From NCBI GenBank assembly GCA_964472135.1, contig CAYYJB010000001.1, positions 67,944-131,943 of the forward strand: a stretch of 64,000 nucleotides of DNA, in the 5' to 3' direction. Of the stretch, positions 32,996 through 46,250 are shown in pieces; positions within the stretch are counted from its first letter, which is position 1; each line of letters opens with the position of its first letter. The DNA comes from an uncultured Gemmobacter sp. Its GTDB lineage: Bacteria > Pseudomonadota > Alphaproteobacteria > Rhodobacterales > Rhodobacteraceae. The notes under the pieces were generated by a model. It saw nothing but the letters and a program-made list of their open reading frames with translations. It searched no databases and was not told the DNA's origin. The translations under genes were made by a program, and so were the position numbers.

Positions 32996-33012
32996 TTGCG
33001 TTTCTCCCTCGC

Positions 33013-33468
33013 TCAGCCCATGGCCGCGGCGTCGTGGATCGCCTTGCGGATCGCCGGATAGGTGCCGCAACGGCAGAGGTTCCCGGCCATCGCCGCGTCG
33101 ATCTCGCGGTCGGTGGGGGCGGGGGTGGTGGCCAAGAGCGCCGCCGCGGACATGATCTGTCCGGACTGGCAATAGCCGCACTGGGGCACGGTGTTCTCGA
33201 CCCAGGCCTTCTGGACCTTGTGGCTTCCGTCGGGCGAGAGGCCCTCGATCGTGGTGATCGTCTTGCCGGCGACGCTCGCCGCGCTGACGTTGCAGGATTT
33301 GACCGCCACGCCATCGACATGGACGGTGCAGGCGCCGCACTGGGCGATGCCGCAGCCGTATTTCGTTCCGGTCAGGCCGATCGTGTCGCGCAGGACCCAC
33401 AGGAGCGGCGTCTCTGCCTCCACGTCGATATCGTGGCTCGCGCCATTCACGTTAAGTGTAAAACTCAT
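33013..33468 (-). CDS. (2Fe-2S)-binding subunit (IorA-like)
   Basis: 151 aa. Motifs [11 protein letters not shown] and CGYCQSG...CRCGTY. RBS GAGGGAGAAGG. Confidence 0.93.
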
Positions 33469-33487
33469 TGAACCTTCTCCCTCATGA

Positions 33488-33519
33488 GTTCCGCAAAGGG
33501 GTATCGCCCTGTTCCGCAA
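33488..33519 (-). repeat. direct repeat TTGCGGAAC x2 (23-nt period) just upstream of the iorA-like RBS
   Basis: GTTCCGCAA at 33488-33496 and 33511-33519 on the plus strand. The proximal copy ends 19 nt before the start codon. Confidence 0.6.
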
Positions 33520-33703
33520 CGTTGGGCCTTCGGGGCCTTCTGGCGGGCCTTGTGGCGACACGCGGGACGGTGCCCGCGACGCGGAGCCTGCGACTGGCCC
33601 GAAAAAAACTCAAGCGCTATTTGCTGTTCGCGAGCGTGGGGCGCGGACCCTGGGTGTGGCGAGATGACGCATATGTGCGCCGTGTCGACAGATCGGCGCC
33701 CTA

Positions 33704-34564
33704 TCAGCCGACGATGAGCGCCGCCTCGGCGCGATAGGTCGGGCCGGTCATGTCGAACCACTTGAAATCGATGGGGCCCGAGGAGGCGGCGCGCAGATGG
33801 AAGAGGAAATAGGGGTTGGTCGCCATCGCGGGATAGAGCCGCGCCTTGAAGAATTCGACGCCACCCTGCCGGGCGCCGAAGCTCGAGATGATGCGCTGGC
33901 GCACCCATTCGTCGGTGGCACTCTTGCGCAGCCCCGTCTCCATCGGATGCGAGATGACGGCGCGCACCGGCACCAACTCTCCCTTCGCGGCATGCGGCTG
34001 CACGCTTACGCGCGCCTCGGGCCGAAAGGCGAAGACATCGTCGTTCGAACCCGATCCGATCTGCGCGCAGGCGCCGAAGCTGACCGACACCTCGCGATCG
34101 GTCCGCAGATGGCGCCCGTCGCGCATCTGCGCCACCAGCGTCACGCGTTGCGTCTGCTCAAGGCGTATCCGCGTCGTGACCTCGGCCCGGCCCGACTCGG
34201 GCGTGAACCAGACCGAAAGGATCTGCGGCGTCGGGTTCCCGTGCGCAACGAGGTGCACGACCGTCGGACAGTCCTCGGGCGTCATCTGCGCGTCGATGCG
34301 GATCGTGCAGGGCACGGAACCGCCCGTATCGACATGGTCGGGCAGATCGAGATGCAGCCCCGTCTGTTCGAAGACGACCCCGCGGCCGAAATTCGCCTCG
34401 ATCACCGTCTCGGCGTCGCGCCAGACCGAATCGAACCCCTCGAGGTCGGTGACCCCCTGATTGGCCCGCAGCAGGCCGGGCGCCGAGAGTGTCGCCACAC
34501 CGGCGGCTGCGAGGCGCAGAAATTTCCGGCGCGCGAGGCGGCGGAGCGCAGGGGTCTGAGGCAT
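33704..34564 (-). CDS. soxYZ: fused SoxY-SoxZ sulfur-carrier protein, Tat signal
   Basis: 286 aa from ATG 34562-34564. Tat motif ARRKFLRLAAAG. SoxY-like domain ending VSVSFGACAQ, a Gly/Ser linker, then a SoxZ-like domain (VISHPMETGLRK...NPYFLFHL). Confidence 0.85.
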   Translation of the reverse strand: MPQTPALRRLARRKFLRLAAAGVATLSAPGLLRANQGVTDLEGFDSVWRDAETVIEANFGRGVVFEQTGLHLDLPDHVDTGGSVPCTIRIDAQMTPEDCPTVVHLVAHGNPTPQILSVWFTPESGRAEVTTRIRLEQTQRVTLVAQMRDGRHLRTDREVSVSFGACAQIGSGSNDDVFAFRPEARVSVQPHAAKGELVPVRAVISHPMETGLRKSATDEWVRQRIISSFGARQGGVEFFKARLYPAMATNPYFLFHLRAASSGPIDFKWFDMTGPTYRAEAALIVG

Positions 34565-34804
34565 CTGTCGGTCCTCGGCAGCGGCGCCGAAGAGGCTGCG
34601 CCGGCCCAAGGCCCGCACCGCCGCCTCGGCGACCAGCGTCAGCCTAGGGCGCATCCCCAGCACGATGCAAGGCGGCAGAATGGCTTGCCTGCCTGCGGCC
34701 GAACAGCCCACTTCCTTCGCGGCATGAGCTGCGCTAGCGTGCGCGTCAAGCGGCGGCGCCCCGGCGTGCGCGGGGCGCGCGCCTTCTGCCGCGACGGAGG
34801 GGTC

Positions 34805-35107
34805 ATGGCTGCGATCGGTTGGGGGGCGACACTCGGGCTTGTGTTGACATTTCATGCCTTCCCGGCGCTGGCCGAGGATGCGCGCGGGGCGATCCTCGCG
34901 GGGTCGTGCGCGGCTTGTCACGGCCCCGAGGGGCGCAGCCCGGGGGCGATTCCCGCGATCGACGGGTTGCCCGCCGAAGACATGGCGCGGCTGCTTGGCG
35001 AATACCGCAGCGGCGCCCTGGCGGGAACCGTGATGAACCGCATCGCCCGAGGCTTTACCGATGACGAGATCGCGGCCATCGCGGCCCATCTCGGCGATCG
35101 GCGCTGA
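34805..35107 (+). CDS. fccA: mono-haem cytochrome c (flavocytochrome c sulfide dehydrogenase small subunit, FccA/SoxE-like)
   Basis: 100 aa. Signal peptide, single CAACH. RBS GGAGGGG. An in-frame ATG at 34724 is an alternative start. Confidence 0.8.
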   Translation: MAAIGWGATLGLVLTFHAFPALAEDARGAILAGSCAACHGPEGRSPGAIPAIDGLPAEDMARLLGEYRSGALAGTVMNRIARGFTDDEIAAIAAHLGDRR

Positions 35108-35117
35108 GGGGGGCGCG

Positions 35118-36392
35118 ATGAGCGGATCCGCGATCGACCGCCGCAGCCTGATCGGCATCGCGCTTGCGTCCCCCTTCGTTCTCGGGCACCCCGCCAGAGG
35201 GGCAGCCGGCGCGCGCGTGGCGGTCGTGGGGGCAGGCTTCGCTGGGGCGAGCTTCGCGCGCACCCTGCGCCTGATCGCCCCCGAGATCTCGGTCGTTCTG
35301 ATCGAACCGGCCGCCTCGATCGTCACCTGCCCGTTCAGCAACCTCGTGATCGCCGGCATGGCAGAGATCGGTGCCGTCACCCACGGCCTCGACGGCCTGC
35401 GCGCCGCAGGGATCGAGGTGGTTCAGGATCGGGTGGTGGGGGCCGATCCAGGGCAGGGTCGGCTGACGCTCGCGGGCGGAGGCGAGGTCGGCTTTGACCG
35501 TCTCGTGGTCGCGCCCGGGATCGAGCTGCGCCTTGACGCGATCGAGGGCTATGACGCGAGCGCCGCAGAGACGATGCCCCATGCCTGGAAGGCGGGGCCG
35601 CAGACGCTGAATCTGCGCGACCGCCTGCGCGCCATGCCCGACGGCGGCACGGTGCTGATCGCGGTTCCCGCCAACCCCTACCGCTGTCCGCCCGGGCCCT
35701 ACGAACGCGCCAGCCTGATCGCGCATTACCTCAAGACCGAAAAGCCGCGATCGAAGCTGCTCGTGGTCGACGGCAAGGACAGCTTTTCCAAGCAGGGCCT
35801 TTTTCTCGATGGCTGGGCGGAACTTTATGGCGGCCTTGTCGAGTGGATCCCAGTCTCGCAGGCTGGATCGCTCATGGGCGTCGATGCGGGCTCGGGCGAG
35901 ATCCGTACCGAGTTCGCCCGTTTCAATGCCGATGTCGCCAACATCATCCCGCCCCAGAAGGCGGGCGCGATCGCGCAGTCTCTGGGCCTCGCGGGCGAGG
36001 GGGGGTGGTGCGCCATCGATCCGCTCAGCTTCGAATCGTCCCTCGTTCCGGGGGTGCATGTGCTGGGCGATGCCATCGTCGCCGGCGCCATGCCCAAGTC
36101 GGGCTTCGCGGCATCGAGCCAGGGCAAGGCCTGCGCGCACGCGCTTGCGGCAATCCTGGGCGGGCGCGCGCCCGAGGCCCCCTCGTTCATCAACACCTGC
36201 TACAGCCTGGTCGGGCCTGATTACGGCATTTCGGTCGCCGACGTCTTCAGGGTGGGCGCCTCGGGCAAGATCGAGGCCATCGAGGGGGCGGGCGGCACCA
36301 GTCCGCGGGGCGTGGATCCGGGCCTGCGCAGCGCCGAGGCCAGTTACGCACATGGATGGTATGCGAGCATCACCGCCGATATCTGGGGCTGA
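35118..36392 (+). CDS. fccB: flavocytochrome c sulfide dehydrogenase flavoprotein subunit (FccB/SoxF)
   Basis: 424 aa. Tat motif DRRSLIG. VAVVGAGFAGASFA FAD fold. Motifs YRCPPGPYERASLIA, NIIPPQKAG and MPKSGFAASSQGKACA. Confidence 0.92.
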   Translation: MSGSAIDRRSLIGIALASPFVLGHPARGAAGARVAVVGAGFAGASFARTLRLIAPEISVVLIEPAASIVTCPFSNLVIAGMAEIGAVTHGLDGLRAAGIEVVQDRVVGADPGQGRLTLAGGGEVGFDRLVVAPGIELRLDAIEGYDASAAETMPHAWKAGPQTLNLRDRLRAMPDGGTVLIAVPANPYRCPPGPYERASLIAHYLKTEKPRSKLLVVDGKDSFSKQGLFLDGWAELYGGLVEWIPVSQAGSLMGVDAGSGEIRTEFARFNADVANIIPPQKAGAIAQSLGLAGEGGWCAIDPLSFESSLVPGVHVLGDAIVAGAMPKSGFAASSQGKACAHALAAILGGRAPEAPSFINTCYSLVGPDYGISVADVFRVGASGKIEAIEGAGGTSPRGVDPGLRSAEASYAHGWYASITADIWG

Positions 36393-36837
36393 GGCCGCCC
36401 CGGCCGCCCCGGCCGCGGCGCGCCGGGTCGTGCTCGGGCTGATCGTTGCCCTCGGGACGGGGGCCGCGGGCGCGGCGCTGGGCATACCCGAGCCGCTCAC
36501 AGCCGAACCCGGCAACCCGGATCGCGGGCGACTGATCGTGCGCGACCTCTCGGCGGCGTCCTGCCTCATCTGCCACGCCATGCCGATCCCCGAAGAGCCT
36601 GACCATGGCGACATCGGGCCGCCGCTCCATGGGGTCGGCGCCCGGCTGACCCCGGCCGAGTTGCGCGAGCGGCTGGTCGATCCCAAGGCCCTCAACCCCG
36701 ACACCGTGATGCCCTCCTATTTCCGGACAGAGGGGCTGAAGGACGTGCTCATGCGCTATCGCGGCCGTACGATCTATTCGGCCCAGCAGGTCGAGGACGT
36801 GGTCGCCTATCTCTCGACGCTGACCGAGGCGCCGTGA
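36361..36837 (+). CDS. soxX: SoxX mono-haem cytochrome c (start uncertain: ATG 36352/36361 or GTG 36430)
   Basis: CLICH haem motif and DTVMPSYF. Overlaps the fccB 3' end in another frame. Its TGA overlaps the soxA start (GTGATG). Confidence 0.8.
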   Translation: MRASPPISGAEAAPAAPAAARRVVLGLIVALGTGAAGAALGIPEPLTAEPGNPDRGRLIVRDLSAASCLICHAMPIPEEPDHGDIGPPLHGVGARLTPAELRERLVDPKALNPDTVMPSYFRTEGLKDVLMRYRGRTIYSAQQVEDVVAYLSTLTEAP

Positions 36838-37625
36838 TGCGTGCCCTCCTGCCCATGCTCGCGACCGGTGCCGCCTGGCTCGCGGCCCTCGGAGCATCAG
36901 CCCAGACGCCTGACCCGACGCCGCGTCCGCCGGTTTCAGGTTACGATTACATGGCCCCCTCGACGCAGGAGTTGCAGGACGACGACTTCGGCAATCCTGG
37001 CTTTTTCGCGATCGACCGCGGCGTGCGGCTCTGGTCCGAACCGGGCGGCCCGGATGGGGCGGCCTGCGCCGATTGCCACGGCGCCGAGGGTGAGGGCCTC
37101 GTCGGGGCCGCCACCCGACTGCCCGCCGTCGACAGCCGCAGCGGAACGTTGATGAACCTCGAGGGGCACATCAACAACTGCCGTGTCGAAAGAATGAAAT
37201 CTGATCCTTACGCATATGAATCCGAAGAACTTCTCTCGCTTACGGCGTATGTTTCCTACCTCTCGCGCGGGCTGCCGGTCGCGGTGGCGGCTGATGGCCC
37301 GGCCGCGCCATTCTTCGAGGAGGGGCGCGCGCTCTATTTCGAACGTCGGGGGCAACTCGATCTGTCCTGCACCCAGTGCCATGATGAGCGCGCCGGCCAG
37401 ATGCTGCGCGGCGATCGCATCAGCCAGGGCCATGTCAACGGGTTTCCGATCTACCGGTTGAAGTGGTTTTCGATGGGGTCGCGGCATCGCATGTTCGAAT
37501 GGTGCAACACATCGCTCAGGGCCGAACCCTTCGCGCCCGGTAGCCCCGAATACCTCGCGCTGGAACTTTATGTCGCGTGGCGCGGTAACGGCCTGCCGAT
37601 CGAGACACCGGCCGTGCGGCGCTAG
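36837..37625 (+). CDS. soxA: SoxA di-haem cytochrome c (L-cysteine S-thiosulfotransferase subunit)
   Basis: Signal peptide, then CADCH and CTQCH. SoxA-typical FEWCNTSLRAEP with an active-site Cys. GTG 36834 is an alternative start. Confidence 0.9.
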   Translation: MRALLPMLATGAAWLAALGASAQTPDPTPRPPVSGYDYMAPSTQELQDDDFGNPGFFAIDRGVRLWSEPGGPDGAACADCHGAEGEGLVGAATRLPAVDSRSGTLMNLEGHINNCRVERMKSDPYAYESEELLSLTAYVSYLSRGLPVAVAADGPAAPFFEEGRALYFERRGQLDLSCTQCHDERAGQMLRGDRISQGHVNGFPIYRLKWFSMGSRHRMFEWCNTSLRAEPFAPGSPEYLALELYVAWRGNGLPIETPAVRR

Positions 37626-38344: not shown

Positions 38345-39004
38345 TCAGCCGCCGACAAAGACCGACATCCGCGCGGTGCGCATCGCGAGAGGCTCATACT
38401 CGTGCCCGCGGATCATGCAGGTCGTGGCCTCGGCACGTTCGTAAAGTTCGTTCGCGATCGAGGCATCGAGTTCGACGCCCTGTCCCATCGCATAGAGGGT
38501 TCCAAGCCGGAACATCGCGGCGGCGAGGTTCTGGCGAACCGCACGCTCATACCATTCGGCCGCCCGCGCGTGATCGAGCGGCACGCCCGTGCCGGTCGAA
38601 TACATCTCGCCCAGCTTGTATTGCGCAAGCGCGTTGCCCGCCTCGCCCGCGCGCTCGTACCAGCGCGCCGCCTCGGCCGGATCCCGCGCCATGCCCGCCC
38701 GTCCGAGTTCATGGATGAGGCCGAGATTGACCATCGCCTCGACCACGCCCTGCGCGGCGGCCATCTCATACCAGCGCTGCGCGGTCGCGTCGTCTTCGGG
38801 GCGGCCAAGCCCCCGATCGAAAAGATTGCCGAGGTTGTATTGGGCATCCGCATCGCCCGCCTCGGCCAGCGGCAGCCAGTGCCCGAACGCGGTCGCGTAA
38901 TCCCCGGCCATCGCGGCCCGCGCGCCGTCGTCGAAGGCATCGGCGCGCACATGCTGGGACCACAGCACGAAGGCGCACAGTCCGATCACCAGCAAGCCGC
39001 GCAT
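38345..39004 (-). CDS. Sel1-like repeat (SLR) protein, secreted
   Basis: 219 aa. RBS GGAGGA. Signal peptide. Five or more repeats of the type DAxAQYNLG / AARWYERAGEAGNALAQYKLG. Confidence 0.85.
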   Translation of the reverse strand: MRGLLVIGLCAFVLWSQHVRADAFDDGARAAMAGDYATAFGHWLPLAEAGDADAQYNLGNLFDRGLGRPEDDATAQRWYEMAAAQGVVEAMVNLGLIHELGRAGMARDPAEAARWYERAGEAGNALAQYKLGEMYSTGTGVPLDHARAAEWYERAVRQNLAAAMFRLGTLYAMGQGVELDASIANELYERAEATTCMIRGHEYEPLAMRTARMSVFVGG

Positions 39005-39129: not shown

Positions 39130-39603
39130 ATGGGCTGGCGCGGCGCGGTATCGGCGGTTGCGGTGCTTCTGGCCTCGACGGGCGCAGGCTCGGCGCGCGA
39201 CATCCTCGAGACGCTGCGGGTGTCGGGCAACCACGAGATGTTTCTGGTCGCGGTCGAACGCGCGGGCTTCCTCGAGACGCTGCGCGGCCCCGGCCCGATC
39301 ACGCTGCTCGCGCCCCACGATGTCGCGTTTCGCGAACTCGAGGACGGCGGCGGGTTCGAGATGCTGCTGCTCCGGCCCGACCTCCTGCGCCAGATCGTTG
39401 CCTATCACATCCTGCCCGGGACGGTCGTCCTTGAGGATATGGCCGAAGGTGCCGCCATGGCCACCGTGCAGGGCAAGGAAGTGGTTTTTCTGCGCGCGGG
39501 CGGGGCGGCATTCAACCACGCGCGGCTGAGAAAGCCTGACATCGCCGCATCGAACGGCATCGTGCACGAGATCGAAGATATCCTGATCCCGCCGGGGCTT
39601 TGA
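39130..39603 (+). CDS. fasciclin (FAS1) domain protein, secreted
   Basis: 157 aa. RBS GGAGG. FAS1 motifs TLLAPHDVAF and NGIVHEIEDILIPP. Confidence 0.88.
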   Translation: MGWRGAVSAVAVLLASTGAGSARDILETLRVSGNHEMFLVAVERAGFLETLRGPGPITLLAPHDVAFRELEDGGGFEMLLLRPDLLRQIVAYHILPGTVVLEDMAEGAAMATVQGKEVVFLRAGGAAFNHARLRKPDIAASNGIVHEIEDILIPPGL

Positions 39604-39613: not shown

Positions 39614-41203
39614 TCAGACGACCGTGAACTGCCCCATCATGCCGGCATCCTCGTGTTCGAGAATGTGGCAGTGATACATGAAGGGATAATCGCGCGGGGC
39701 GGGTTGATCGAACCGCACGAGGATCTCGGTCTGGCCCGACACCAGCACCGTATCCTTCCATCCGCTGTTTTCAGGCCGAACCATGCCGCCCGCCTCGTCG
39801 ATGACCCGGAACTGCACCCCGTGGATGTGGAAAGGGTGCTCGCTGCTCGCGCCGCCCGAGATCAGCCAGCGTTCGGTCGTGCCGCGTGGGATCTCGAAAT
39901 CGTTGCGGGTCGGGTCGTAGACGCGGCCATTGATCGAAAAATCATGCAGGTCGTGGTTCGATGTGGATGCCGTCTCGCCCGTCGTCGCCACGAGCGACTG
40001 GGCGTGCCCCGATCCGTGCCCCGATCCGTCCCCGTGCTGATGTCCGGATAGGTTCCCGCCCGGGCGGCCGACCGCGCCGCCGCCGGTGTTGAGGGCGAAC
40101 CGCCGGGTCGGACCGTCCGCCCCATCGAGGGGCGGCAACTCGGGGCCGAGCCGATCGGGCAGACGGTCGATCCGGGCGGGCAGATCGGGATCGACCGCGA
40201 AGTCGAGGATGTCGATCTGACCCCGACCCGAGATCAGCCGCGCCGGCGCGCCGTCCGAGAAATCGACCAGCACCTCGGCGCGCTCGCCCGAGGCGATGCG
40301 CAGGCTGCGCAACGGGCGCGGGACCGGCAGATAGCCCCCGTCTGTCGCGATCAGATGAAGCGGGCGGCCATCGGGAAAAAGCAGCGTGTAGGTCCGGGCG
40401 TTCGAGGCATTGAGCACGCGAAGCCGCACGATGCCCGCGGGGACGGCGGCCGTCGCCCCGATCTGGCCGTTGACGAAGATGCGATTGCCATGGAACCCGT
40501 TCAGGATGTCCGTCGGCGTCAGATCATAGACCATGCGCCCCTCGGCATCGACGCGGCGGTCCTGCACGATCAGCGTCAGGTCGTCGACACCATAGCGGCT
40601 GGGCAGGCCGCGCTCATCGTCGCGCCCGTCTACGAGGTGGATCACCCCCGCCAGACCAGCGTAGACATGCCGCGCCGTCGCGCCGTGCACGTGCGAATGA
40701 TACCATGCGGTCATCGGCTCTTGCGCGACGGGCAGCACCGTGCGCCGCCGCTCGCCCGCCCCGATCGGGTTATGGGGCCCGCCGTCGACCACTCCAGGCA
40801 CCAGCAGGCCGTGCCAGTGGACCGTCACATCCTCTTTGAGCGCGTTGCGCACCTCGGCCGCGATCTCGCCGCGGGGCAGGATGATGGTCGGGCCGAGATA
40901 GCTCTGGTTGAAACCCGCAGTCATGCTGGGACGCCCCGGCCCGAACCGGGTCCTGCCGGTCTGCGCCCGCAGCGAGATGCTGCCCGTCTCGCGCACATCG
41001 AGGAGCGGCGGCATCCCGAGGCGTCCCGCTGTCGCCGCGCCGACGCGGCGGTCGATCGCGAGGGCCCCCGCCCCCAAAAGCCCCATCGCCCCAAGCCCGA
41101 GCAGGGCGGCGCGCCGGCGCGTGTCGGGCGGGGTGTCGGGCGGGGTGTCGGGCGCAAAGTCGGGCGCAGTGTCGGGCGATGTTCCGAGGCGGCGCGGCGT
41201 CAT
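39614..41203 (-). CDS. CueO-like three-domain multicopper oxidase, Tat-exported
   Basis: 529 aa. Tat motif TRRRAALLGLG. Copper motifs HWHG, WYHSHVHG, HPFHIHG and HCHILEHEDAGMM. ATGA overlap with apbE. Confidence 0.92.
   Translation of the reverse strand: MTPRRLGTSPDTAPDFAPDTPPDTPPDTRRRAALLGLGAMGLLGAGALAIDRRVGAATAGRLGMPPLLDVRETGSISLRAQTGRTRFGPGRPSMTAGFNQSYLGPTIILPRGEIAAEVRNALKEDVTVHWHGLLVPGVVDGGPHNPIGAGERRRTVLPVAQEPMTAWYHSHVHGATARHVYAGLAGVIHLVDGRDDERGLPSRYGVDDLTLIVQDRRVDAEGRMVYDLTPTDILNGFHGNRIFVNGQIGATAAVPAGIVRLRVLNASNARTYTLLFPDGRPLHLIATDGGYLPVPRPLRSLRIASGERAEVLVDFSDGAPARLISGRGQIDILDFAVDPDLPARIDRLPDRLGPELPPLDGADGPTRRFALNTGGGAVGRPGGNLSGHQHGDGSGHGSGHAQSLVATTGETASTSNHDLHDFSINGRVYDPTRNDFEIPRGTTERWLISGGASSEHPFHIHGVQFRVIDEAGGMVRPENSGWKDTVLVSGQTEILVRFDQPAPRDYPFMYHCHILEHEDAGMMGQFTVV
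40004..40027 (-). repeat. 12-nt tandem duplication inside the His/Gly-rich insert of the multicopper oxidase
   Basis: GTGCCCCGATCC x2 on the plus strand, encoding GSGH-GSGH. Confidence 0.8.
41121..41180 (-). repeat. 5 x 12-nt in-frame tandem repeat in the Tat-signal n-region of the multicopper oxidase
   Basis: Units are gtgtcgggcggg, gtgtcgggcggg, gtgtcgggcgca, aagtcgggcgca, gtgtcgggcgat. They encode SPDT-APDF-APDT-PPDT-PPDT immediately before the RRR. Confidence 0.9.
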
Positions 41204-42189
41204 GACCAGCCCGCCGTTTCGCCATAGCGGAGGATCTCGCCATCGGCGCGGGTCAGGCGCGCGCGGAACCCGTTTCTTGCCGGCAAGATGGCGCCCGCCC
41301 GATCCGGCCCCGCGACATAGAGCGCGGTCGACAGCGCGTCCGCCTCGCGCGCCGTCGGTGCCTCAACGACCGCCTCGATCACGCCCTCGGCGCTCCGGCC
41401 CGTCACGGGGTCGATGATGTGGTGTCCGCCGCCCGGCATCCTGAGGCCATACCCCCCCGATATCGCGAGCGCCGTCTCGCGCAGCGCCATCGTCCCGCGC
41501 GTGCGTGTCGGGTCGGTCGGATCGATCAGCGCGACCGCATGGCCCGCACCATCGGGGCCCGATCCGAGGGCGCGCAACTCGCCCGCGTCGATCAGCGCCT
41601 CATTGAACCCCTCGGCAGAGAGCATCGCCGCCAGCCTGTCCGCCGCGTGCCCCTGGGCGATCCCGTTCAGGGTAATCCGCATGCCCGGGCGGCCAAGACC
41701 GATCCGTCGTGCCCCGACATAGACCGCATCGCGCGCCACAAGGGCCCGCGCCGCCGCATGGGCCCTTGCGTCGCCCGGTTGCATGCTGAGCGCGCGCCAG
41801 AGGGGCTGGATCGTCGGATCGAAGGCGCCACCGCTTGCCTCGGCGACCTCGAGCGCATGCGTCAGCACCGCGCGCATGTCGGTCGAGGGTCGCTCGAGAC
41901 GCCGATCTAGGTTCAGCCGCGCGATCTCGCTCCGGGGGTCGTGCAGATCGAAGATGCGCCGCAGACGTCCGAGTTCGGCCTCGATCCGTCCGAGGGCGGC
42001 GCGCGCGCGGTTCGGGTCGGGGTGCCAGAGTGTGATCGCGGCTTCGGCGCCGAGCGCCTCACCCCGCCAGTGCACGGCCTCGGGGGCGCCGCGCAGCCCA
42101 CGCCCCAGCGCAAGCGCGAGTGGGATCGCCCCCGCCGCCGCCGCGACGCGCAGGAATTGCCGCCGTCCAAAGCCGCGCCCACCCCTCAT
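41200..42189 (-). CDS. apbE: FAD:protein FMN transferase ApbE, Tat signal
   Basis: 329 aa from ATG 42187-42189. Tat motif GRRQFLRVAAAAG. ApbE-family sequence. ATGA overlaps on both sides. Confidence 0.9.
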   Translation of the reverse strand: MRGGRGFGRRQFLRVAAAAGAIPLALALGRGLRGAPEAVHWRGEALGAEAAITLWHPDPNRARAALGRIEAELGRLRRIFDLHDPRSEIARLNLDRRLERPSTDMRAVLTHALEVAEASGGAFDPTIQPLWRALSMQPGDARAHAAARALVARDAVYVGARRIGLGRPGMRITLNGIAQGHAADRLAAMLSAEGFNEALIDAGELRALGSGPDGAGHAVALIDPTDPTRTRGTMALRETALAISGGYGLRMPGGGHHIIDPVTGRSAEGVIEAVVEAPTAREADALSTALYVAGPDRAGAILPARNGFRARLTRADGEILRYGETAGWS

Positions 42190-44306
42190 GCCGCCCCCGC
42201 TGCCATCGTGCCGCCGACCGTTCCGCCCGCCGCCTGCCGGCGCGCCCCCTGCTTGCGAAGCTGCGCGAGGGGCGGGCAACGATGATCGTCGTTATATTCG
42301 ACCATGCAGTCCAGACACTGAAAGCATTCGTTCATCCGGATCGCCCCCGAGCGTCCGATCGCCTTGACCGGGCACGAACGCTCGCACAACCGGCAGGGCG
42401 ATCCGCATTCGGGCCGCCGCTTGAGCAGTTCGACCAGATGCAGCCGGTCCATGATCGCGAGCACCGCCCCCAGCGGACACAGAAACCGGCAGAAGGCCCG
42501 TTCGGTGAACAGCCCTGCCGACAACAGGACAACGGCCCACAGCACATAGGGCAGGGCGCGATCGAAGATCGCGGTGATCGCGGTCTTGAACGGCTCCACC
42601 TCGGCCGCGACGGCGCCCGCGTCCGGCGCCACGAAGGCAAGCCCCACGACCACGGCCAGCGCCACATACTTGATGTTCCACAGACGCGATTGCAGCGCCT
42701 CGGACGGCGACCACTGGGGCAGGCGCAGCGCCCGGGCCAGATTGGCGAGCAACTCCTGCATCGCGCCGAAGGGGCACAGCCAGCCGCAGAACACCCCCCG
42801 CCCGAGCCACAGCAGCGAGGCGAGGGTGTAGAGCGAGATCATCACGATCAGCGGTTCGGCAAGATAGAATCCGACGTCGAGCCCGCCGAAGGGTGCGGCG
42901 AGGTAATTGATCACATGCACGATCGACAGTTGAGCGCCTGCGATCCAGCCGATCCAGACCAGCGTGAAAGTCAGGAACCCGAGTCGCAGCCCACGATAGA
43001 GGGCGCGGTGGCGCACGATGCGGCCCTGCATCGCAAGGATCAGCGTCAGCGCCGCAAGCGCCGCCGCCAGGACGACCTCTTGCCCGACCCCCTCGCGCCA
43101 CGCCTCGACCCAGGCGGGGACGGGGGCGGGCGGGGGCATCAGCACATAGTGGGCGGGCAGGGTGTAGTCGATCGCCGCCACGAGGAAGCGCGTCTCGGCA
43201 CCATCGGGGGCACGCGCCGTCGCATGCACTTCGGCCCGCCAGGGGACAAACGGGTCGAAGCCGCCGTCAGGCGGCAGCACGGCGATGTGCGCGACCCTGC
43301 CCAGCGCGAAGTTCGCGCTGACCAGATCCTGCGCCTTGAAGGTATGGATGCGCCCAGCCTGATGAACCTCGAGCCGCTCAAGCCGGAACCCGTGCGATAT
43401 GTTGCGGTATTTCGATCCGCGAAAGTCGAAGATCCCGTTCGAGGCGAAGATCAGCGCATGGGTGCCCTCGGGTCGCTTCTCGATCAACTGGTCGTAGGCC
43501 CATTGTCCCGCGCCGTTGCGCCCGATCGTGGGCGGGATCGCATAGCCCGCGCGAAAATCGATATAGGTCGCCTCGGGTTTGCCCCATGGTTCGACCTCGG
43601 GCGTGTGCCCCGCAAGCCCCGCCTCGGCCATGATGCGCGCAAGATCGGCATTCGTGACGATCGTCTGTGCCAGTCCGCCGTCCGCGATCAGCTCTTCCGC
43701 CGTCATCGGGCGGAAGTTCAGCGTGTCGACAGTCGGCTCGGTCACGACCTTCTTTCCGGTGCGATAGCGCAGCACGATCCCCGCGCCCTCCAGAACGGCG
43801 TTGCGCATCGCCCGCGCCGAGATCGTCGCCCCGGCGACATGCTGGGGCGGCAGGGCCCCCTCGGCCCCGACGCGCGCCTCGAGGCCTGTGATCGAGTTCA
43901 GCACCTGCGTGAGTTGACCGGTGCGCCGGGCGTCGTTGATGAGATAGGGCTCGCGATGAAAGAGGACCATCGCGCCCGTCACCCGCCCGTCGAGGCCGAC
44001 GCCCGCCACCACATCAAACGGTGTCGGCGAATAGCCCGGCGCGCGCAGCACGTCGAAGGTAGAGAACGCATATCCGGCGAGGGTTTCACCCGATTTCACC
44101 GCCATTGCCGGCGGCCCGCCGTCAGAAAGAGCCTCTAGCGCCGTCGCGCCCGGGAATATTTCGGCCATCACCTCGGGGGTCAGCCGTTCGCTCAGCGGCG
44201 GCCGTTCGGTCGACGTCCCCTGCGCGAGCGCCGCCGTGGCCCAGAGCAAGCAGACGATTTGCAGCAGCGCGGCGAGGGTCCGTCCTGTCGATCCGGGGCG
44301 CCGCAC
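42186..44306 (-). CDS. NosR/NirI-family membrane FMN- and Fe-S-binding protein
   Basis: 706 aa from GTG 44304-44306 (RBS GAGGAGGA). Periplasmic FMN-bind domain with VAGATIS. CGWLCPFG and CRFLCPLG motifs. C-terminal cysteine clusters CGSPCRLCERSCP and CFQCLDC. The 1085-aa maximal ORF has no in-frame ATG near the homology start. Confidence 0.88.
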   Translation of the reverse strand: MRRPGSTGRTLAALLQIVCLLWATAALAQGTSTERPPLSERLTPEVMAEIFPGATALEALSDGGPPAMAVKSGETLAGYAFSTFDVLRAPGYSPTPFDVVAGVGLDGRVTGAMVLFHREPYLINDARRTGQLTQVLNSITGLEARVGAEGALPPQHVAGATISARAMRNAVLEGAGIVLRYRTGKKVVTEPTVDTLNFRPMTAEELIADGGLAQTIVTNADLARIMAEAGLAGHTPEVEPWGKPEATYIDFRAGYAIPPTIGRNGAGQWAYDQLIEKRPEGTHALIFASNGIFDFRGSKYRNISHGFRLERLEVHQAGRIHTFKAQDLVSANFALGRVAHIAVLPPDGGFDPFVPWRAEVHATARAPDGAETRFLVAAIDYTLPAHYVLMPPPAPVPAWVEAWREGVGQEVVLAAALAALTLILAMQGRIVRHRALYRGLRLGFLTFTLVWIGWIAGAQLSIVHVINYLAAPFGGLDVGFYLAEPLIVMISLYTLASLLWLGRGVFCGWLCPFGAMQELLANLARALRLPQWSPSEALQSRLWNIKYVALAVVVGLAFVAPDAGAVAAEVEPFKTAITAIFDRALPYVLWAVVLLSAGLFTERAFCRFLCPLGAVLAIMDRLHLVELLKRRPECGSPCRLCERSCPVKAIGRSGAIRMNECFQCLDCMVEYNDDHRCPPLAQLRKQGARRQAAGGTVGGTMAAGAA

Positions 44307-44412
44307 GTCGGGATCCTCCTCGGCCGCATCGCGCCAGCCGCATGAGCGGATTTGGACGCGACGCGGGACAAAGCGCAAGAAGAAAAATGTCGGCACTTGG
44401 CGGGTCGCGTGC

Positions 44413-45825
44413 TCAGGGCAGGCCGAGTGCGACAGCCGATAGCGCCACGACGCGCGCCCCCCCGCTGAGGGCATCCGCCGTCGCGCGCGCGCCTTCGGCG
44501 TCCCCCGCACCTGCCTGCGCCCCCGCAACGGCGGCCATCGCCGCATCGCGTCCGTGCACCCCCTCGATTGCGGCGACGGCCGCGCGCGCCGCATCCACCG
44601 CCCCCGCCGCCGCCTCGAGCGTCGCGATGCGCGAAAGCACCTCTGTCCGTTCGCGCCTATAGGCGATGGCGGCTGCGGTTTGACGCGCGCTCGCGTGGTC
44701 GCCGGCCCCCGCCTGCGCGAGCGCGATCTGCGCCAGCGCCTCGACATGTGCGCCGCTGTCGCGGATCTCGGCGGCGATCCCGCGCGCCTGTTCGACCGCG
44801 CCTGCCTCCGCCAGCGCGCCCGCCACCGCGACCATGCCATCCGCCGCGCCATAGGCCCAGACGATCGCGCGCGCCGTCTCGATCCCTTCCGCGGGACGGC
44901 CGGCACGGACATGGGCGCGCGCGATCGCGACATAGACGCCCTGGTCGCCCGAGGCGATGTCGATTTCGGCCGCGGTCCGCTCGGCGCCCGCGATATCGCC
45001 GGCGTGCGCCTGCGCGAGGCCGACCGCGACCGTGGCGCGCGCCCGCCAACCCGGGTCGCGGATCGAGCGGGCGAGTGCCAGCGCCTCGGCCGTCTGCCCC
45101 GTCTCGGCCTGCACCGCCGCGATGCCCGCGAGGGCATCGAAGAACCACGTGTCCTCGACGATTGCCTCGGAAAAGCGATACGCATCGCGCGCGCGGGCCT
45201 CGGCGAGCCAACTCGCGCTCTCGATCCGGGCGGCGGTCGCGATCGCGCCGGCAACATCGCCGCCCCGCGCCTGCGCCTTGGCGATGGCCGCCTGCGCCTC
45301 GGCGCGGCGATAGAGATCCTCGATCGCGCCGGTCGTCCCGAACGCGCCCTCGATGTCGCCGGCCTGCAACTGCGCGATCGCGACAGCCTCGAAGGCCGCG
45401 TTCCGCGCCGATTGCTCGCGCGCGTCCTCGATCCCCGCGGCAAGCGCTTGCGCGCCCTCGATCTCGCCCGCCCGGGCCATCGCCGCCGCCACGAGCGCGA
45501 GCGCCTCGGCGCGCATGTAGTCGTCCGGGATCGCGCGGGCGTCTGCCACGGCGGCCCGGGTGTCGCCGAGCGCCGCGCGCGTGCTAGCGAGGGCGAAATA
45601 GGCGTCGGAGCGCTCGCGCGGGTGGAGAAGGGTTTGCGCCGTCTCGGCCGCCGCCCCGAGCAGCGCCGCCCGCAGCGCCTGCGCCGTGGCCCCGTCGGCC
45701 CCGAGTTGCGACGCCCAGCCGACCAGCCCGATACCGAGGATCGTTCGGCGCAGCCAGCGGCGCGCGCGCGTGTCCGTCACGATGTCCCTCTCGCTTGCGG
45801 CGTTTGCGCTGCCGCTTGGCGACAT
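44413..45825 (-). CDS. membrane-anchored Ala-rich helical-repeat protein (about 11 TPR/HEAT-like repeats of ~33 aa)
   Basis: N-terminal RRWLRRTILGIGLVGWASQL segment, then the repeated pattern I.D....A..A.A.AQA.AGD..GA..TA. GC3-rich codons. GTG 45780 with RBS GAGAGGGA is an alternative start. Confidence 0.65.
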   Translation of the reverse strand: MSPSGSANAASERDIVTDTRARRWLRRTILGIGLVGWASQLGADGATAQALRAALLGAAAETAQTLLHPRERSDAYFALASTRAALGDTRAAVADARAIPDDYMRAEALALVAAAMARAGEIEGAQALAAGIEDAREQSARNAAFEAVAIAQLQAGDIEGAFGTTGAIEDLYRRAEAQAAIAKAQARGGDVAGAIATAARIESASWLAEARARDAYRFSEAIVEDTWFFDALAGIAAVQAETGQTAEALALARSIRDPGWRARATVAVGLAQAHAGDIAGAERTAAEIDIASGDQGVYVAIARAHVRAGRPAEGIETARAIVWAYGAADGMVAVAGALAEAGAVEQARGIAAEIRDSGAHVEALAQIALAQAGAGDHASARQTAAAIAYRRERTEVLSRIATLEAAAGAVDAARAAVAAIEGVHGRDAAMAAVAGAQAGAGDAEGARATADALSGGARVVALSAVALGLP

Positions 45826-45866: not shown

Positions 45867-46181
45867 TCAGCCCTCGACGGGTTTGAGGTGGCGCATCGCC
45901 ACCCAGCCCTCGCGCCCCTCGCGCGCGACCCGGCCCCAGGTGCTGTCGGCCGACACCTCGAGGATCATGACGTCGCGGGCATCGAACGCGATCCAGCCGA
46001 TCGCCTTGGCGAGCACATCGGGGCCCTCGCGCATCACCAGCATGTCATCGGAATGAAGCCCGACCACCATGAGGGGCCCGACCGGCGCGCCGGCGTTTGC
46101 CGTCTGAGCGTCCGCGCCGCCCTGCAGGGCGAGCGAAATCGCAAGGCAGAGGCAGGCGATGACGGGTGCGGTGCGGTTCAT
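45867..46181 (-). CDS. small secreted SH3b-like protein
   Basis: 104 aa. Signal peptide MNRTAPVIACLCLAISLALQGGADA. C-terminal WGRVAREGREGWVAMRHL is typical of bacterial SH3 domains. Confidence 0.55.
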   Translation of the reverse strand: MNRTAPVIACLCLAISLALQGGADAQTANAGAPVGPLMVVGLHSDDMLVMREGPDVLAKAIGWIAFDARDVMILEVSADSTWGRVAREGREGWVAMRHLKPVEG

Positions 46182-46222: not shown

Positions 46223-46250
46223 GGGCGCCCCCGCCGTGGCGGGGGCGCCC
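46223..46250 (-). terminator. rho-independent terminator of the binding-protein gene
   Basis: GGGCGCCCCCGCC / GGCGGGGGCGCCC inverted repeat, followed on the minus strand by TTTTTCTT. Lies 20 nt after the stop at 46270. Confidence 0.75.

What the first reader, a model, noticed from the sequence alone, without database searches (positions are those of the whole stretch)
39614..44306. NosR-like / ApbE / multicopper-oxidase operon: N2O-reductase accessory electron-donor machinery wired to a CueO-type oxidase instead of NosZ
Three genes are welded into one translational unit by ATGA overlaps at 42186-42189 and 41200-41203.
(1) A 706-aa NosR/NirI-type membrane protein. It has a periplasmic FMN-bind domain with the flavinylation-type motif VAGATIS, two CxxxCP motifs (CGWLCPFG, CRFLCPLG) and C-terminal Cys clusters (CGSPCRLCERSCP, CFQCLDC).
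(2) A Tat-signal ApbE FAD:protein FMN transferase, the enzyme class known to flavinylate NosR.
(3) A Tat-signal CueO-like multicopper oxidase with all four copper-ligand motifs.
NosR and ApbE are established partners of nitrous-oxide reductase, yet no nosZ, nosD, nosF, nosY or nosL is present in the window. An MCO sits where nosZ normally does. This implies a membrane-derived electron input into a periplasmic MCO: either the MCO acts as an O2-reducing end module, or NosR keeps its copper centres reduced or active. I am not aware of this coupling having been characterised.
Basis: partly seen in the sequence, partly recalled or inferred. Interest (0 to 1): 0.8.

Follow-up and report, generated by a model that had tools for sequence, protein, structure and literature searches.

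The report
NosR-like electron module with copper oxidase
A freshwater Gemmobacter-like bacterium carries a real operon in which a membrane flavin/iron-sulfur electron-transfer protein and its flavin-attaching enzyme are joined to a copper oxidase; this enzyme pairing has not been described, but it is a new variant of a known modular system, not rewired nitrous-oxide machinery.

Summary
Three minus-strand genes are joined by two ATGA overlaps: a NosR-like protein of 706 aa, a Tat-exported ApbE/NosX, and a Tat-exported CueO-family multicopper oxidase (MCO). All quoted motifs are present. No nosZ, nosD, nosY or nosL lies in the window.

- The NosR-like protein is about 33-35% identical to nosZ-linked NosR. 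It belongs to a separate alphaproteobacterial "orphan" clade.
- That clade usually occurs as a NosR-like-ApbE pair (60 of 78 loci) and never next to nosZ (0 of 78).
- It lies near varied periplasmic redox enzymes. This matches the modular "NapH-like flavinylated systems" described by Meheust et al. in 2021.
- So the module is not Nos machinery rewired to a new enzyme.

The MCO link is nevertheless real and specific. An MCO lies within 10 kb in 9 of 78 loci. Eight of those, in two different gene orders, carry one small MCO subclade. That subclade has 8 of 113 family members, and all 7 with known context are linked, including one predicted beforehand. These MCOs keep all 12 copper ligands. They lack CueO's Met-rich loop and its substrate-copper residues.

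A TPR-like solenoid protein travels with the module. Electron transfer from NosR-like FMN to the MCO is plausible but unproven.

Verdict: new variant of a known kind, moderate interest.

The parts
42186..44306 (-). NosR-like membrane flavo-iron-sulfur protein, 706 aa. It has a signal or anchor helix at residues 10-28. A periplasmic FMN-bind domain follows, with the candidate flavinylation Thr161 in QHVAGAT. Next come a periplasmic NosR domain and about 5-6 transmembrane helices that carry two CX3CP motifs. A C-terminal Cys-rich region carries two ferredoxin-type motifs.
   Evidence: Searches give the ORF, the GTG start and the Shine-Dalgarno site. Searches give Fer4_5, PF27538 NosR, weak FMN_bind, and NF046105 at 451 of 1000 bits. 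One search shows all Cys motifs 100% conserved. One search gives the hydropathy segments. Searches give an AF2 model whose only significant PDB fold match is RnfG, the flavinylated FMN subunit (E 1.6e-4).
41200..42189 (-). ApbE/NosX-type FAD:protein FMN transferase, 329 aa, with the twin-arginine signal GRRQFLR and no lipobox Cys. Its start overlaps the NosR-like stop (ATGA at 42189-42186).
   Evidence: PF02424 at 1e-48; 41% identity to Phaeobacter NosX; an ApbE homolog lies next to the NosR-like gene in 60 of 78 clade loci; the 4-nt overlap is conserved in 5 of 5 orthologous loci.
39614..41203 (-). Three-domain CueO-family multicopper oxidase, 529 aa, with a Tat signal. All 12 copper ligands are present. 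The variable loop is Met-free and His/Gly-rich. The start overlaps the ApbE stop (ATGA at 41203-41200).
   Evidence: Cu-oxidase domains 1-3, and CueO NF008205 at 435 bits against a cutoff of 525; best PDB match 6evg CueO at 371 bits. Searches give the ligand mapping onto E. coli CueO. One search gives the loop composition; it belongs to an 8-member MCO subclade in which all 7 members of known context are linked to NosR-like/ApbE.
44413..45825 (-). Ala-rich TPR-like alpha-solenoid protein of about 455-470 aa, with an N-terminal RRWLRR...AQA signal-like segment. It is a co-travelling component of the module in Paracoccaceae and is a probable scaffold.
   Evidence: no Pfam or NCBIfam family; homologs are named TPR protein or hypothetical. 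AF2 mean pLDDT 87.7, all helical hairpins. Foldseek returns TPR/PPR scaffolds; it lies next to NosR-like/ApbE in 23 of 78 clade loci, and directly after the MCO gene in L091 and L092.
45867..46181 (-). Small secreted SH3-like protein, 104 aa, immediately upstream of the TPR gene. It may be the first gene of the transcription unit. Confidence is low.
   Evidence: weak SH3_3 and SH3_4 matches; a gene of 104-112 aa holds the same position in L001, L085 and L086; a strong terminator-like hairpin lies just upstream of it.
46223..46250 (-). Intrinsic-terminator-like hairpin with 12 G-C pairs followed by a T run. It lies between the upstream solute-binding-protein gene and the SH3-like gene and is the likely upstream boundary of the unit.
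44314..44320 (-). AGGAGGA Shine-Dalgarno site, 7 nt upstream of the GTG start of the NosR-like gene. The 107-nt spacer to the TPR gene holds a conserved promoter-like element.
   Evidence: One search gives the sequence. One search shows the conserved element AAGTGgCGACA..CTTGCaCTTTG..GCGTCCAAtTC in five related loci.
39130..39603 (+). Fasciclin (FAS1) domain protein, 157 aa, convergent with the MCO gene. It is conserved at this position in the operon-type loci only, and its role is unknown.
   Evidence: PF02469 at 3.7e-23; present in L003/L095, L094 and L086, absent in L091 and L092.
40003..40034 (.). 12-nt tandem repeat (2.8 copies) inside the MCO gene. It encodes the GHGSGHGSGH part of the variable loop.
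41116..41178. 12-nt tandem repeat (5.3 copies) inside the MCO gene. It encodes PDTx repeats ahead of the Tat motif.

Best explanation
This is a nosZ-independent, NosR-family ("NapH-like") flavinylated transmembrane electron-transfer module. In one Gemmobacter-like Paracoccaceae lineage it has recruited a dedicated CueO-family multicopper oxidase (MCO) into its operon.

Shown directly:
- The gene string is (SH3-like)-TPR-like-NosR-like-ApbE-MCO, with overlapping stop and start codons.
- The cofactor motifs are intact.
- The nos genes are absent.
- The NosR-like protein lies outside the nosZ-linked clade.
- One MCO subclade is co-inherited with the module.

Inferred from family knowledge:
- The Tat-exported ApbE/NosX attaches FMN covalently to Thr161 of the periplasmic RnfG-like domain.
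- The protein carries electrons between the cytoplasmic or quinol side and the periplasmic FMN. The route runs through the C-terminal [4Fe-4S] motifs and the CX3CP-bearing membrane helices.

My commitment (inference):
- In this lineage the periplasmic FMN domain hands electrons to the MCO, most likely at its type-1 copper. The TPR-like solenoid may act as a scaffold.
- The MCO then reduces O2 to water, or is kept reduced and active, using membrane-derived electrons. It would not act as a free-standing Cu(I) oxidase.

The module's core function predates the MCO and does not need it. Elsewhere the same core sits beside Mo-hydroxylases, sulfite-oxidase-family enzymes and PQQ dehydrogenases.
For: Operon structure:
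- The ATGA overlaps are in the window.
- Tight junctions are conserved in orthologous loci.

Module identity:
- Fer4_5, the NosR domain and FMN_bind are detected.
- The only significant fold match is RnfG.
- All 16 Cys of the CX3CP and ferredoxin-type motifs are invariant.
- The G-A-T core of the flavinylation motif is conserved at 91-96% (motif definition from PMC12052999).
- ApbE is adjacent in 60 of 78 clade loci.

Not Nos:
- nosZ, nosD and nosL are found in 0 of 78 clade loci. nosZ is found in 35 of 91 more distant loci.
- The clade is separate in the NJ tree.
- The NosR equivalog score is 451 against a cutoff of 1000.

Specific MCO link:
- Operon-type loci are L001, L003/L095, L093, L094, L086 and L176.
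- A second, convergent order (MCO->TPR-> <-ApbE<-NosR-like) occurs in L091 and L092.
- The linked MCOs form one clade of 8 among 113 homologs.
- All 7 with known context are linked. P0125 was predicted to be linked from the tree and then confirmed.
- The nearest unlinked homologs looked up (53-56% identical) sit in a copper-resistance island or alone.
- The linked MCOs have Met-poor loops and lack the CueO substrate-copper residues. This fits a change of electron donor.

Precedent for modular partners:
- PMC8238504.
Against: - No experiment or structure shows contact or electron transfer.
- MCOs normally need no protein electron donor.
- Most clade members lack a nearby MCO. These include close relatives at 60-66% identity: L088, L089, L013 and L004-L009. 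The module's primary partner must therefore be something else, or something general.
- All MCO-linked loci are related Paracoccaceae that share flanking sox and Sel1 genes. Part of the conserved adjacency is therefore inheritance, and there are at most 2-3 independent arrangements.
- The window protein's flavinylation motif departs from the consensus at two positions: Q for D, and A for S/T.
- The FMN_bind Pfam score is below threshold.
- In L091 and L092 the NosR-like gene is in the same operon as a three-subunit Mo-hydroxylase, while the MCO is on the opposite strand.
Confidence: 0.45

Rival explanations
1. Co-expression without electron exchange. The TPR/NosR-like/ApbE module serves other periplasmic partners, such as the nearby Mo-hydroxylase, sox proteins or a general reductant supply. 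The MCO gene was inserted downstream and is merely co-regulated. It would then work as an ordinary free-standing periplasmic oxidase.
For: - The core pair occurs without an MCO in most loci.
- MoCoBD genes lie nearby in 18 of 78 loci. In L091 and L092 they are in the same operon as NosR-like-ApbE.
- MCO-family homologs elsewhere function in copper-resistance contexts (CutO in PMC8456105).
- The unusual MCO loop partly arises from a 12-nt tandem repeat, so it need not be adaptive.
Against: - A dedicated MCO subclade has stayed with the module through at least two gene orders. All 7 members of known context are linked.
- Start and stop codons overlap.
- The Cu(I)-oxidase hallmarks are lost in the linked MCOs.
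Confidence: 0.33
2. Copper redox cycling or metallation. The NosR-like flavoprotein acts as a periplasm-facing cupric (or ferric) reductase. It would supply Cu(I) for loading the Tat-exported apo-MCO, or work against the oxidase to set the periplasmic Cu(I)/Cu(II) balance. This would be analogous to the related polyferredoxin CcoG, which reduces Cu(II) and is needed for full CutO activity.
For: - CcoG is a cupric reductase, and its loss lowers R. capsulatus CutO activity by about 25% (PMC8456105).
- That CcoG belongs to the same NapH/NosR-related Fer4_5 polyferredoxin family is my own knowledge. It was not tested here.
- The periplasmic flavin domain is suitable for metal reduction. Flavinylated systems are tied to iron reduction in PMC8238504, but that point rests on my own recollection of the paper. 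The passages read do not cover it.
- The linked MCOs carry a His-rich loop.
Against: - No copper chaperone, transporter or sensor gene lies in the unit.
- The NosR-like clade mostly lacks any copper gene nearby.
- No invariant Cys, His or Met metal site was seen in the periplasmic domains.
Confidence: 0.14
3. Rearranged remnant of a nos cluster. A true nosR-nosX pair lost nosZDFYL and ended up next to an unrelated oxidase.
For: - The domain architecture is the same as NosR over its full length (model positions 17-679 of 680).
- The ApbE is 41% identical to NosX.
Against: - Identity to nosZ-linked NosR is about 33-35%.
- The clade is distinct.
- None of 78 relatives has nosZ, nosD or nosL within 10 kb.
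- All cofactor motifs are under conservation, so the gene is not decaying.
Confidence: 0.02
4. Regulator reading. The NosR-like protein is a membrane-bound transcriptional regulator, as old annotations of NosR and NirI state, and it controls MCO expression.
For: - Source annotations of homologs read "transcriptional regulator of nitric oxide reductase" or "NosR/NirI family transcriptional regulator".
Against: - No DNA-binding domain was detected.
- The architecture is that of an electron-transfer protein with FMN and Fe-S motifs.
- The current literature treats NosR as a flavo-iron-sulfur electron-transfer protein (PMC12052999).
Confidence: 0.03

Closest known systems
NosR of nosRZDFYL(X) clusters (Pseudomonas stutzeri; the Phaeobacter and Cereibacter plasmid clusters L083 and L084)
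   Same: - The architecture matches over the full length. It has a periplasmic FMN-bind domain with a G-A-T flavinylation core, a NosR domain, membrane helices with two CX3CP motifs, and two C-terminal Cys clusters.
- It is matured by an ApbE/NosX enzyme.
- It is paired with a Tat-exported multi-copper enzyme.
   Different: - Identity is only about 33-35%.
- It scores below the equivalog cutoff (451 against 1000 bits).
- It belongs to a separate clade.
- It is never next to nosZ, nosD, nosF, nosY or nosL.
- The flavinylation motif has Ala where NosR has Ser (D-x-V-S-G-A-T in NosR; x-F-V-A-G-A-T here).
- The gene order is NosR-like-ApbE-enzyme, whereas nos clusters run nosR-nosZ-...-nosX.
"NapH-like" flavinylated extracytosolic electron-transfer systems (Meheust et al. 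2021, eLife, PMC8238504)
   Same: - It meets that paper's operational definition: a PF12801 membrane protein with an N-terminal FMN-binding domain in a gene cluster with ApbE.
- That paper already states that such modules are used modularly with reductases (NosZ, PceA, NirS) or oxidases (ExaA), and that most have unknown partners.
   Different: - A multicopper oxidase partner is not mentioned in that paper's text, nor in the held part of its supplements.
- The TPR-like companion protein is not described there.
NirI-NirX of Paracoccus denitrificans (from my own knowledge)
   Same: - It is an adjacent pair of a NosR homolog and a NosX/ApbE homolog that lies outside a nos cluster.
- The two-gene order is the same.
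   Different: - NirIX sits beside the cd1 nitrite reductase genes and affects their expression.
- Adjacency to nirS was not tested here.
- The genes annotated within about 10 kb here are sox-type, Sel1, fasciclin, MCO and Mo-hydroxylase genes.
PceC/RdhC of organohalide respiration (PMC5928378)
   Same: - It is a NosR/NirI-type membrane protein with a flavinylated periplasmic FMN domain.
- It is encoded in the operon of a Tat-exported terminal redox enzyme.
   Different: - Its partner is a corrinoid reductive dehalogenase in anaerobic Firmicutes and Chloroflexi.
- There is no sequence-level closeness to the window protein.
CueO (E. coli) and CutO (Rhodobacter capsulatus cutFOG) periplasmic multicopper oxidases
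   Same: - It is a Tat-exported three-cupredoxin-domain MCO.
- All type 1, 2 and 3 copper ligands are conserved.
- It is 40% identical to E. coli CueO.
- The best PDB match is a CueO (6evg).
   Different: - It scores below the CueO equivalog cutoff (435 against 525 bits).
- There is no Met-rich segment: 0 Met in a 71-aa loop, against a family median of 5 Met in 34 aa.
- The CueO substrate-copper residues M355, D360, D439 and M441 map to T, a gap, A and S.
- There is no cutF or cutG.
- It is encoded after NosR-like-ApbE.
CcoG/FixG cupric reductase
   Same: - It is a membrane polyferredoxin of the NapH/NosR-related Fer4_5 family (family membership from my own knowledge, not tested here).
- It reduces Cu(II) and contributes to MCO (CutO) activity in a Rhodobacterales species (PMC8456105).
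   Different: - CcoG has no periplasmic FMN domain and no ApbE partner.
- It acts on cytoplasmic copper.
- It is a functional analogy only.

Membership tests
NosR (nitrous-oxide reductase accessory protein) | Domain architecture: periplasmic FMN-bind domain, NosR domain, membrane helices with two CX3CP motifs, and a C-terminal domain with two ferredoxin-type Cys motifs | tested here: met
   - The NF046105 alignment covers model positions 17-679 of 680.
- Fer4_5 and PF27538 NosR are detected.
- All Cys are 100% conserved.
- The hydropathy segments fit.
- The N-terminal domain has an RnfG-like fold.
NosR (nitrous-oxide reductase accessory protein) | Score at or above the curated equivalog cutoff (NF046105, 1000 bits) | tested here: not met
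   451.2 bits.
NosR (nitrous-oxide reductase accessory protein) | Genomic linkage to nosZ and nosDFYL | tested here: not met
   - No nosZ, nosD, nosY or nosL lies in the window.
- None is found in 78 clade loci with flanks of up to 10 kb.
- nosZ is found in 35 of 91 more distant homolog loci.
NosR (nitrous-oxide reductase accessory protein) | Phylogenetic placement among nosZ-linked NosR sequences | tested here: not met
   The NJ tree of 145 sequences puts it in a separate alphaproteobacterial clade. This is a distance tree without bootstrap support.
ApbE-flavinylated FMN-binding domain proteins | Flavinylation motif D-x-x-[S/T]-G-A-[S/T] (PMC12052999) | tested here: inconclusive
   - The window has Q-H-V-A-G-A-T161.
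- The G-A-T core is conserved in the clade (G 91%, A 96%, T 95%).
- D is present in 63% of the clade.
- The [S/T] position is Ala in 80%.
- D-to-A substitutions are reported to have minor effects.
- Covalent FMN itself cannot be tested with these tools.
ApbE-flavinylated FMN-binding domain proteins | FMN_bind (PF04205) domain | tested here: inconclusive
   - The score is 18.7 bits against a cutoff of 22.
- 13 of 20 clade members match at E<=0.01, the best at 6e-6.
- The only significant PDB fold match of the AF2 model is RnfG 7zc6_G (E 1.6e-4, TM 0.51 on the target).
NapH-like flavinylated system (Meheust et al. 2021) | A PF12801 membrane protein in a gene cluster with ApbE and an extracytosolic FMN-binding domain | tested here: met
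   - PF12801 at 1.1e-19, with PF02424 ApbE adjacent and overlapping.
- The definition was quoted.
ApbE/NosX FAD:protein FMN transferase | ApbE domain above the Pfam cutoff, and export to the periplasm | tested here: met
   - PF02424 at 166.6 bits against a cutoff of 25.6.
- The twin-arginine motif GRRQFLR is present.
- It is 41% identical to NosX.
- It is not the E. coli ApbE equivalog (66 against 498 bits).
Three-domain multicopper oxidase | Three cupredoxin domains and the full ligand set for the type 1, 2 and 3 copper sites | tested here: met
   - Cu-oxidase_3, Cu-oxidase and Cu-oxidase_2 are detected.
- E. coli CueO ligands H101, H103, H141, H143, H443, H446, H448, H499, C500, H501, H505 and M510 all map to identical residues.
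CueO-type cuprous oxidase | Curated equivalog score (NF008205, 525 bits) | tested here: not met
   434.7 bits.
CueO-type cuprous oxidase | Met-rich segment over the type-1 site, and substrate-copper residues M355, D360, D439 and M441 (the residue list is from my own knowledge of E. coli CueO) | tested here: not met
   - The residues map to T373, a gap, A452 and S454.
- The loop is 71 aa with 0 Met and 6 His. The family median is 34 aa with 5 Met and 0 His.
NirI/NirX | Adjacency to the nirS (cd1 nitrite reductase) genes | not tested
   - No NirS query was run.
- The genes annotated within about 10 kb are sox-type, Sel1, fasciclin, MCO, TPR-like and Mo-hydroxylase genes.

The most novel reading that the evidence does not exclude
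A dedicated subfamily of CueO-like multicopper oxidases has become the periplasmic end enzyme of a NosR-type flavo-iron-sulfur conduit. Together with a TPR-like scaffold, it would form a new kind of periplasmic oxygen-reducing branch fed from the membrane or the cytoplasm. Given that an archaeal MCO shows N2O-reductase activity (cited in PMC12052999), it might instead be an alternative reductase. Electrons would flow Fe-S -> covalent FMN -> type-1 copper -> trinuclear centre.
Probability: 0.3. Interest if true: 0.75.

Novelty: new variant of a known kind. Interest (0 to 1): 0.5.

Why it matters
If the NosR-like flavoprotein really feeds electrons to the oxidase, multicopper oxidases could serve as protein-fed terminal enzymes of a membrane-linked chain. 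They would not be only scavengers of small reductants such as Cu(I). It would also give a tractable, oxygen-tolerant model for a long-unsettled question: what NosR-type proteins actually do for their copper-enzyme partners.

Even without that, two results stand:
- A sizeable alphaproteobacterial clade of NosR-like/ApbE pairs is annotated as a "nitrous/nitric oxide reductase regulator" but has nothing to do with nos genes. This matters for reading denitrification potential from metagenomes.
- A small MCO subfamily has lost the copper-detoxification hallmarks.

Tried and rejected
- A quick GC3-based gene caller for the fetched loci merged and mis-started genes and was dropped. I used conservation-based ORF clustering and the precomputed gene calls of the look-up of encoding contigs instead.
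- The sigma-70 promoter scan found nothing, and terminator hits were at the chance level except for one strong hairpin.
- Rfam found nothing in the window.
- A sequence search of the PDB found no solved relative of the NosR-like protein or of the TPR-like protein.
- Pfam and NCBIfam gave no family for the TPR-like protein, even at E<=1.
- The supplement text of PMC8238504 held no Cu-oxidase accessions, but the stored files are truncated, so this is weak evidence.
- I checked whether the window's 288-aa gene after the Mo-hydroxylase cytochrome matches the 289-aa gene that precedes NosR-like in L091. It does not: the window gene is a class-I glutamine amidotransferase and the L091 gene has no family.
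- I considered the His-rich loop as a defining trait of the linked MCOs and rejected it. P0124 has only 2 His in its loop, and part of the window's loop is a recent 12-nt repeat expansion. Only the scarcity of Met is shared.
- The Bauldia locus L014 has an MCO 6 kb away on the opposite strand, only 42% identical. I treat it as a probable coincidence.

Full report
**1. The observation**

The window is about 70% G+C. On the minus strand there are three tightly packed genes.
- The first runs 44306..42186. It starts at a GTG that is preceded by AGGAGGA 7 nt upstream, and it encodes 706 aa.
- The second runs 42189..41200 and encodes 329 aa.
- The third runs 41203..39614 and encodes 529 aa.

Pfam and NCBIfam give these results.
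- Gene 1 has Fer4_5 at 1e-19 and a sub-threshold FMN_bind match. It aligns over the full length of NCBIfam's NosR model, but at 451 bits against a cutoff of 1000.
- Gene 2 has ApbE at 1e-48.
- Gene 3 has the three Cu-oxidase domains. Its best NCBIfam model is CueO, at 435 bits against a cutoff of 525.

A tblastn search with a reference Phaeobacter nosRZDFYLX set found no nosZ, nosD, nosY or nosL in the window.

**2. What the NosR-like protein is**

Bona fide NosR proteins encoded next to nosZ on plasmids are only about 32-36% identical to it. The protein database, by contrast, holds many homologs at 50-86% identity, from Paracoccaceae, Devosia and other Alphaproteobacteria.

I fetched 80 loci from species-representative genomes. 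I fetched 80 more from metagenomes, plus individual contigs. I then scored their flanks with tblastn.

Among 78 non-redundant loci whose protein is at least 44% identical to the window's:
- an ApbE gene is adjacent in 60;
- nosZ, nosD and nosL are found in none.

Among 91 more distant loci, 35 have nosZ.

A neighbour-joining tree of 145 sequences separates the nosZ-linked NosR groups from an alphaproteobacterial "orphan" clade that contains the window protein. This is a distance tree without support values.

The orphan clade keeps every cofactor cysteine: two CX3CP motifs and two C-terminal ferredoxin-type motifs, all at 100%. It also keeps the G-A-T core of the flavinylation motif.
- True NosR has D-x-V-S-G-A-T.
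- The orphan clade has (D)-F-V-A-G-A-T.
- The window has Q-H-V-A-G-A-T161.
- The published motif is D-x-x-[S/T]-G-A-[S/T], and the D is reported to be dispensable (PMC12052999).

An AlphaFold model has mean pLDDT 71.5 and is higher in the NosR domain. It has one significant structural match in the PDB: RnfG, the covalently flavinylated subunit of Rnf. No NosR-type structure is in the PDB by sequence search.

Hydropathy gives an N-terminal signal-like helix, a periplasmic region of about 375 residues, and five to six membrane helices.

The protein is therefore a functional-looking NosR-family flavo-iron-sulfur membrane protein with its own flavin transferase. It is not part of, nor a remnant of, a nos system.

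**3. What is already known about such modules**

Meheust et al. (eLife 2021, PMC8238504) catalogued 2465 "NapH-like" flavinylation clusters. These are PF12801 proteins, mostly with an N-terminal FMN-binding domain, next to ApbE.
- Only about half are Nos or Pce systems.
- Others sit with NirS (133 genomes) or with the PQQ alcohol dehydrogenase ExaA (172 genomes).
- Most have unknown partners.
- The authors conclude that the apparatus is used in a modular way, to pass electrons to reductases or from oxidases.

My survey agrees. Besides ApbE, the recurrent neighbours of the orphan clade are:
- IorAB-type Mo-hydroxylases with a 2Fe-2S subunit and often a cytochrome c (MoCoBD in 18 of 78 loci);
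- sulfite-oxidase-family Mo enzymes (8 of 78);
- PQQ dehydrogenases (3 of 78);
- in Paracoccaceae, sox-type genes.

The words "multicopper" and "copper" do not occur in that paper. No Cu-oxidase accession was found in the held part of its supplements. No paper in the library links NosR and ApbE to an MCO.

**4. How specific is the link to the oxidase?**

An MCO within 10 kb is found in only 9 of 78 clade loci.

Six of these have the window's order:
- TPR-like - NosR-like - ApbE - MCO, followed by a convergent fasciclin gene, two Sel1 genes and the sox genes;
- the NosR-like protein in them is 70-100% identical to the window's (L001, L003/L095, L093, L094, L086, L176).

Two loci at 64% identity (L091, L092) have a different order:
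- MCO then TPR-like on one strand;
- these converge on ApbE <- NosR-like <- 289-aa gene <- cytochrome c <- MoCoBD <- Fer2 <- SoxYZ on the other strand.

Close relatives at 60-66% identity lack any MCO in their flanks (L088, L089, L013, L004-L009, L097, L098).

The NosR-like/ApbE overlap is conserved in 5 of 5 operon-type loci. The ApbE/MCO junction is a 4-nt overlap in three of them and a gap of 12-18 nt in two.

The stronger evidence comes from the oxidase side. In an NJ tree of 113 homologs rooted on E. coli CueO, the linked MCOs form one clade of 8. P0125 was a member of that clade whose context was unknown. I looked it up as a test, and it proved to lie directly after ApbE and a NosR-like C-terminus. 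So 7 of 7 members with known context are linked.

The next-closest homologs I looked up (53-56% identical) lie elsewhere:
- one is in a copper-resistance island with a two-component system, a CopA-like MCO, a cupredoxin and CusF;
- the others are alone.

I read this as a single recruitment of an MCO into the neighbourhood. It was then co-inherited through at least one rearrangement and later lost from the neighbourhood in some branches.

**5. The oxidase itself**

It is 40% identical to E. coli CueO. Its best solved relative is a CueO (6evg, 371 bits). All twelve canonical copper ligands map to identical residues.

It differs in the parts that make CueO a cuprous oxidase.
- The residues that I recall as the substrate-copper site of E. 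coli CueO (M355, D360, D439, M441) map to T, a gap, A and S.
- The variable loop over the type-1 site is 71 residues with no Met and six His.
- The typical family loop is 34 residues with five Met and no His.
- The other linked MCOs are likewise Met-poor (0-2 Met), though not all are His-rich.

Part of the window's loop, and the PDTx repeats ahead of the Tat motif, coincide with 12-nt tandem repeats. The exact loop sequence should therefore not be over-read.

**6. The companion protein**

Immediately upstream (45825..44413) is an Ala-rich protein with no family match. It lies next to NosR-like/ApbE in 23 of 78 clade loci, and in L091 and L092 it follows the MCO gene directly.

AlphaFold predicts a confident all-helical solenoid (pLDDT 87.7). 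Its structural neighbours are TPR/PPR scaffolds.

It begins with an RRWLRR...AQA signal-like segment, so a periplasmic scaffold role is a reasonable guess. That guess is untested.

A 104-aa SH3-like gene and a strong terminator-like hairpin lie further upstream and may mark the start of the unit.

A conserved promoter-like element lies in the 107-nt spacer before the NosR-like gene. Internal transcription starts are therefore possible.

**7. Mechanism**

Shown directly:
- the operon structure and the domain and motif content;
- the absence of nos genes and the separate clade;
- the co-inheritance of one MCO subclade.

Inferred from the families:
- ApbE flavinylates Thr161;
- the protein moves electrons between the membrane or cytoplasmic side and the periplasmic FMN.

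My commitment, at about 0.45: in this lineage the FMN domain reduces the MCO. The MCO then reduces O2, or is kept in its active reduced state, using membrane-derived electrons.

Rivals:
- co-expression only, with the module serving the Mo-hydroxylase, the sox proteins or a general role (0.33);
- a copper-reductase or metallation role, by analogy with CcoG, whose loss lowers CutO activity in R. capsulatus (PMC8456105) (0.14);
- a decayed nos cluster (0.02) and a transcriptional-regulator reading (0.03). The data argue against both.

**8. Verdict**

The finding is real and correctly described at the sequence level. Its headline interpretation needs correcting.
- This is not Nos accessory machinery rewired. 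It is a member of an already recognised class of modular flavinylated membrane conduits.
- That class is here joined to a partner enzyme type not reported before, together with a dedicated MCO subfamily and a TPR-like companion.

I rate it a new variant of a known kind, with moderate interest (0.5). The source is most likely a freshwater Gemmobacter-like member of the Paracoccaceae.

Noticed in passing
window 29343-33561 (minus strand); L091 16706-20789; L092 16479-20564: There is a three-subunit Mo-hydroxylase: a 2Fe-2S subunit at 33561..33016, a MoCoBD subunit at 33010..30806 and a cytochrome c at 30689..29343. In relatives L091 and L092 the same genes run co-directionally, with overlaps, straight into NosR-like-ApbE. 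MoCoBD genes lie within 10 kb of 18 of 78 orphan-clade loci. This enzyme may be the older partner of the module.
   Followed up: partly
window 33707-39004: There is a partial sox-type set: a fused SoxYZ-like carrier (34660..33707, below its equivalog cutoff), an FCSD-type flavoprotein (35061..36392), small c-type cytochromes, a true SoxA (36834..37625, 213 bits against a cutoff of 110) and two Sel1-repeat proteins. The same set flanks the NosR-like module in L089, L091, L092, L094 and L003.
   Followed up: partly
window 40003-40034 and 41116-41178: Two 12-nt tandem repeats lie inside the MCO gene. They encode the GHGSGHGSGH part of the variable loop and the PDTx repeats ahead of the Tat motif. 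Both odd segments of this MCO are therefore recent repeat expansions.
   Followed up: partly
L003 (JBIKVM010000015.1): The contig is filed under a Limisphaerales (Verrucomicrobiota) MAG. It nevertheless carries a fully syntenic cluster 78% identical to the window's, including the Paracoccaceae-type sox flank. It is probably a mis-binned contig.
   Followed up: no
L044, L063, L078; L049, L053, L058, L064, L127, L129: Among distant NosR homologs without nosZ, some loci carry two NosR-like genes in tandem. Others give a longer match with an extra N-terminal partial copy, which suggests duplicated periplasmic domains.
   Followed up: no
window 44307-44415; L093, L085, L096, L095 equivalents: A conserved intergenic element lies between the TPR-like gene and the NosR-like start: AAGTGgCGACA..CTTGCaCTTTG..GCGTCCAAtTC. 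It looks like an internal promoter and may include an operator.
   Followed up: no
window 46223-46250 (minus strand): There is a strong terminator-like hairpin with 12 G-C pairs and a T run. It lies between the polyamine-type solute-binding-protein gene and the SH3-like gene.
   Followed up: no
homolog annotations: Many members of the nosZ-independent clade are annotated in public sources as "transcriptional regulator of nitric oxide reductase" or "nitrous oxide reductase regulator". One MCO homolog is annotated as "biphenyl 2,3-dioxygenase". These labels would mislead metagenomic calls of denitrification potential.
   Followed up: no
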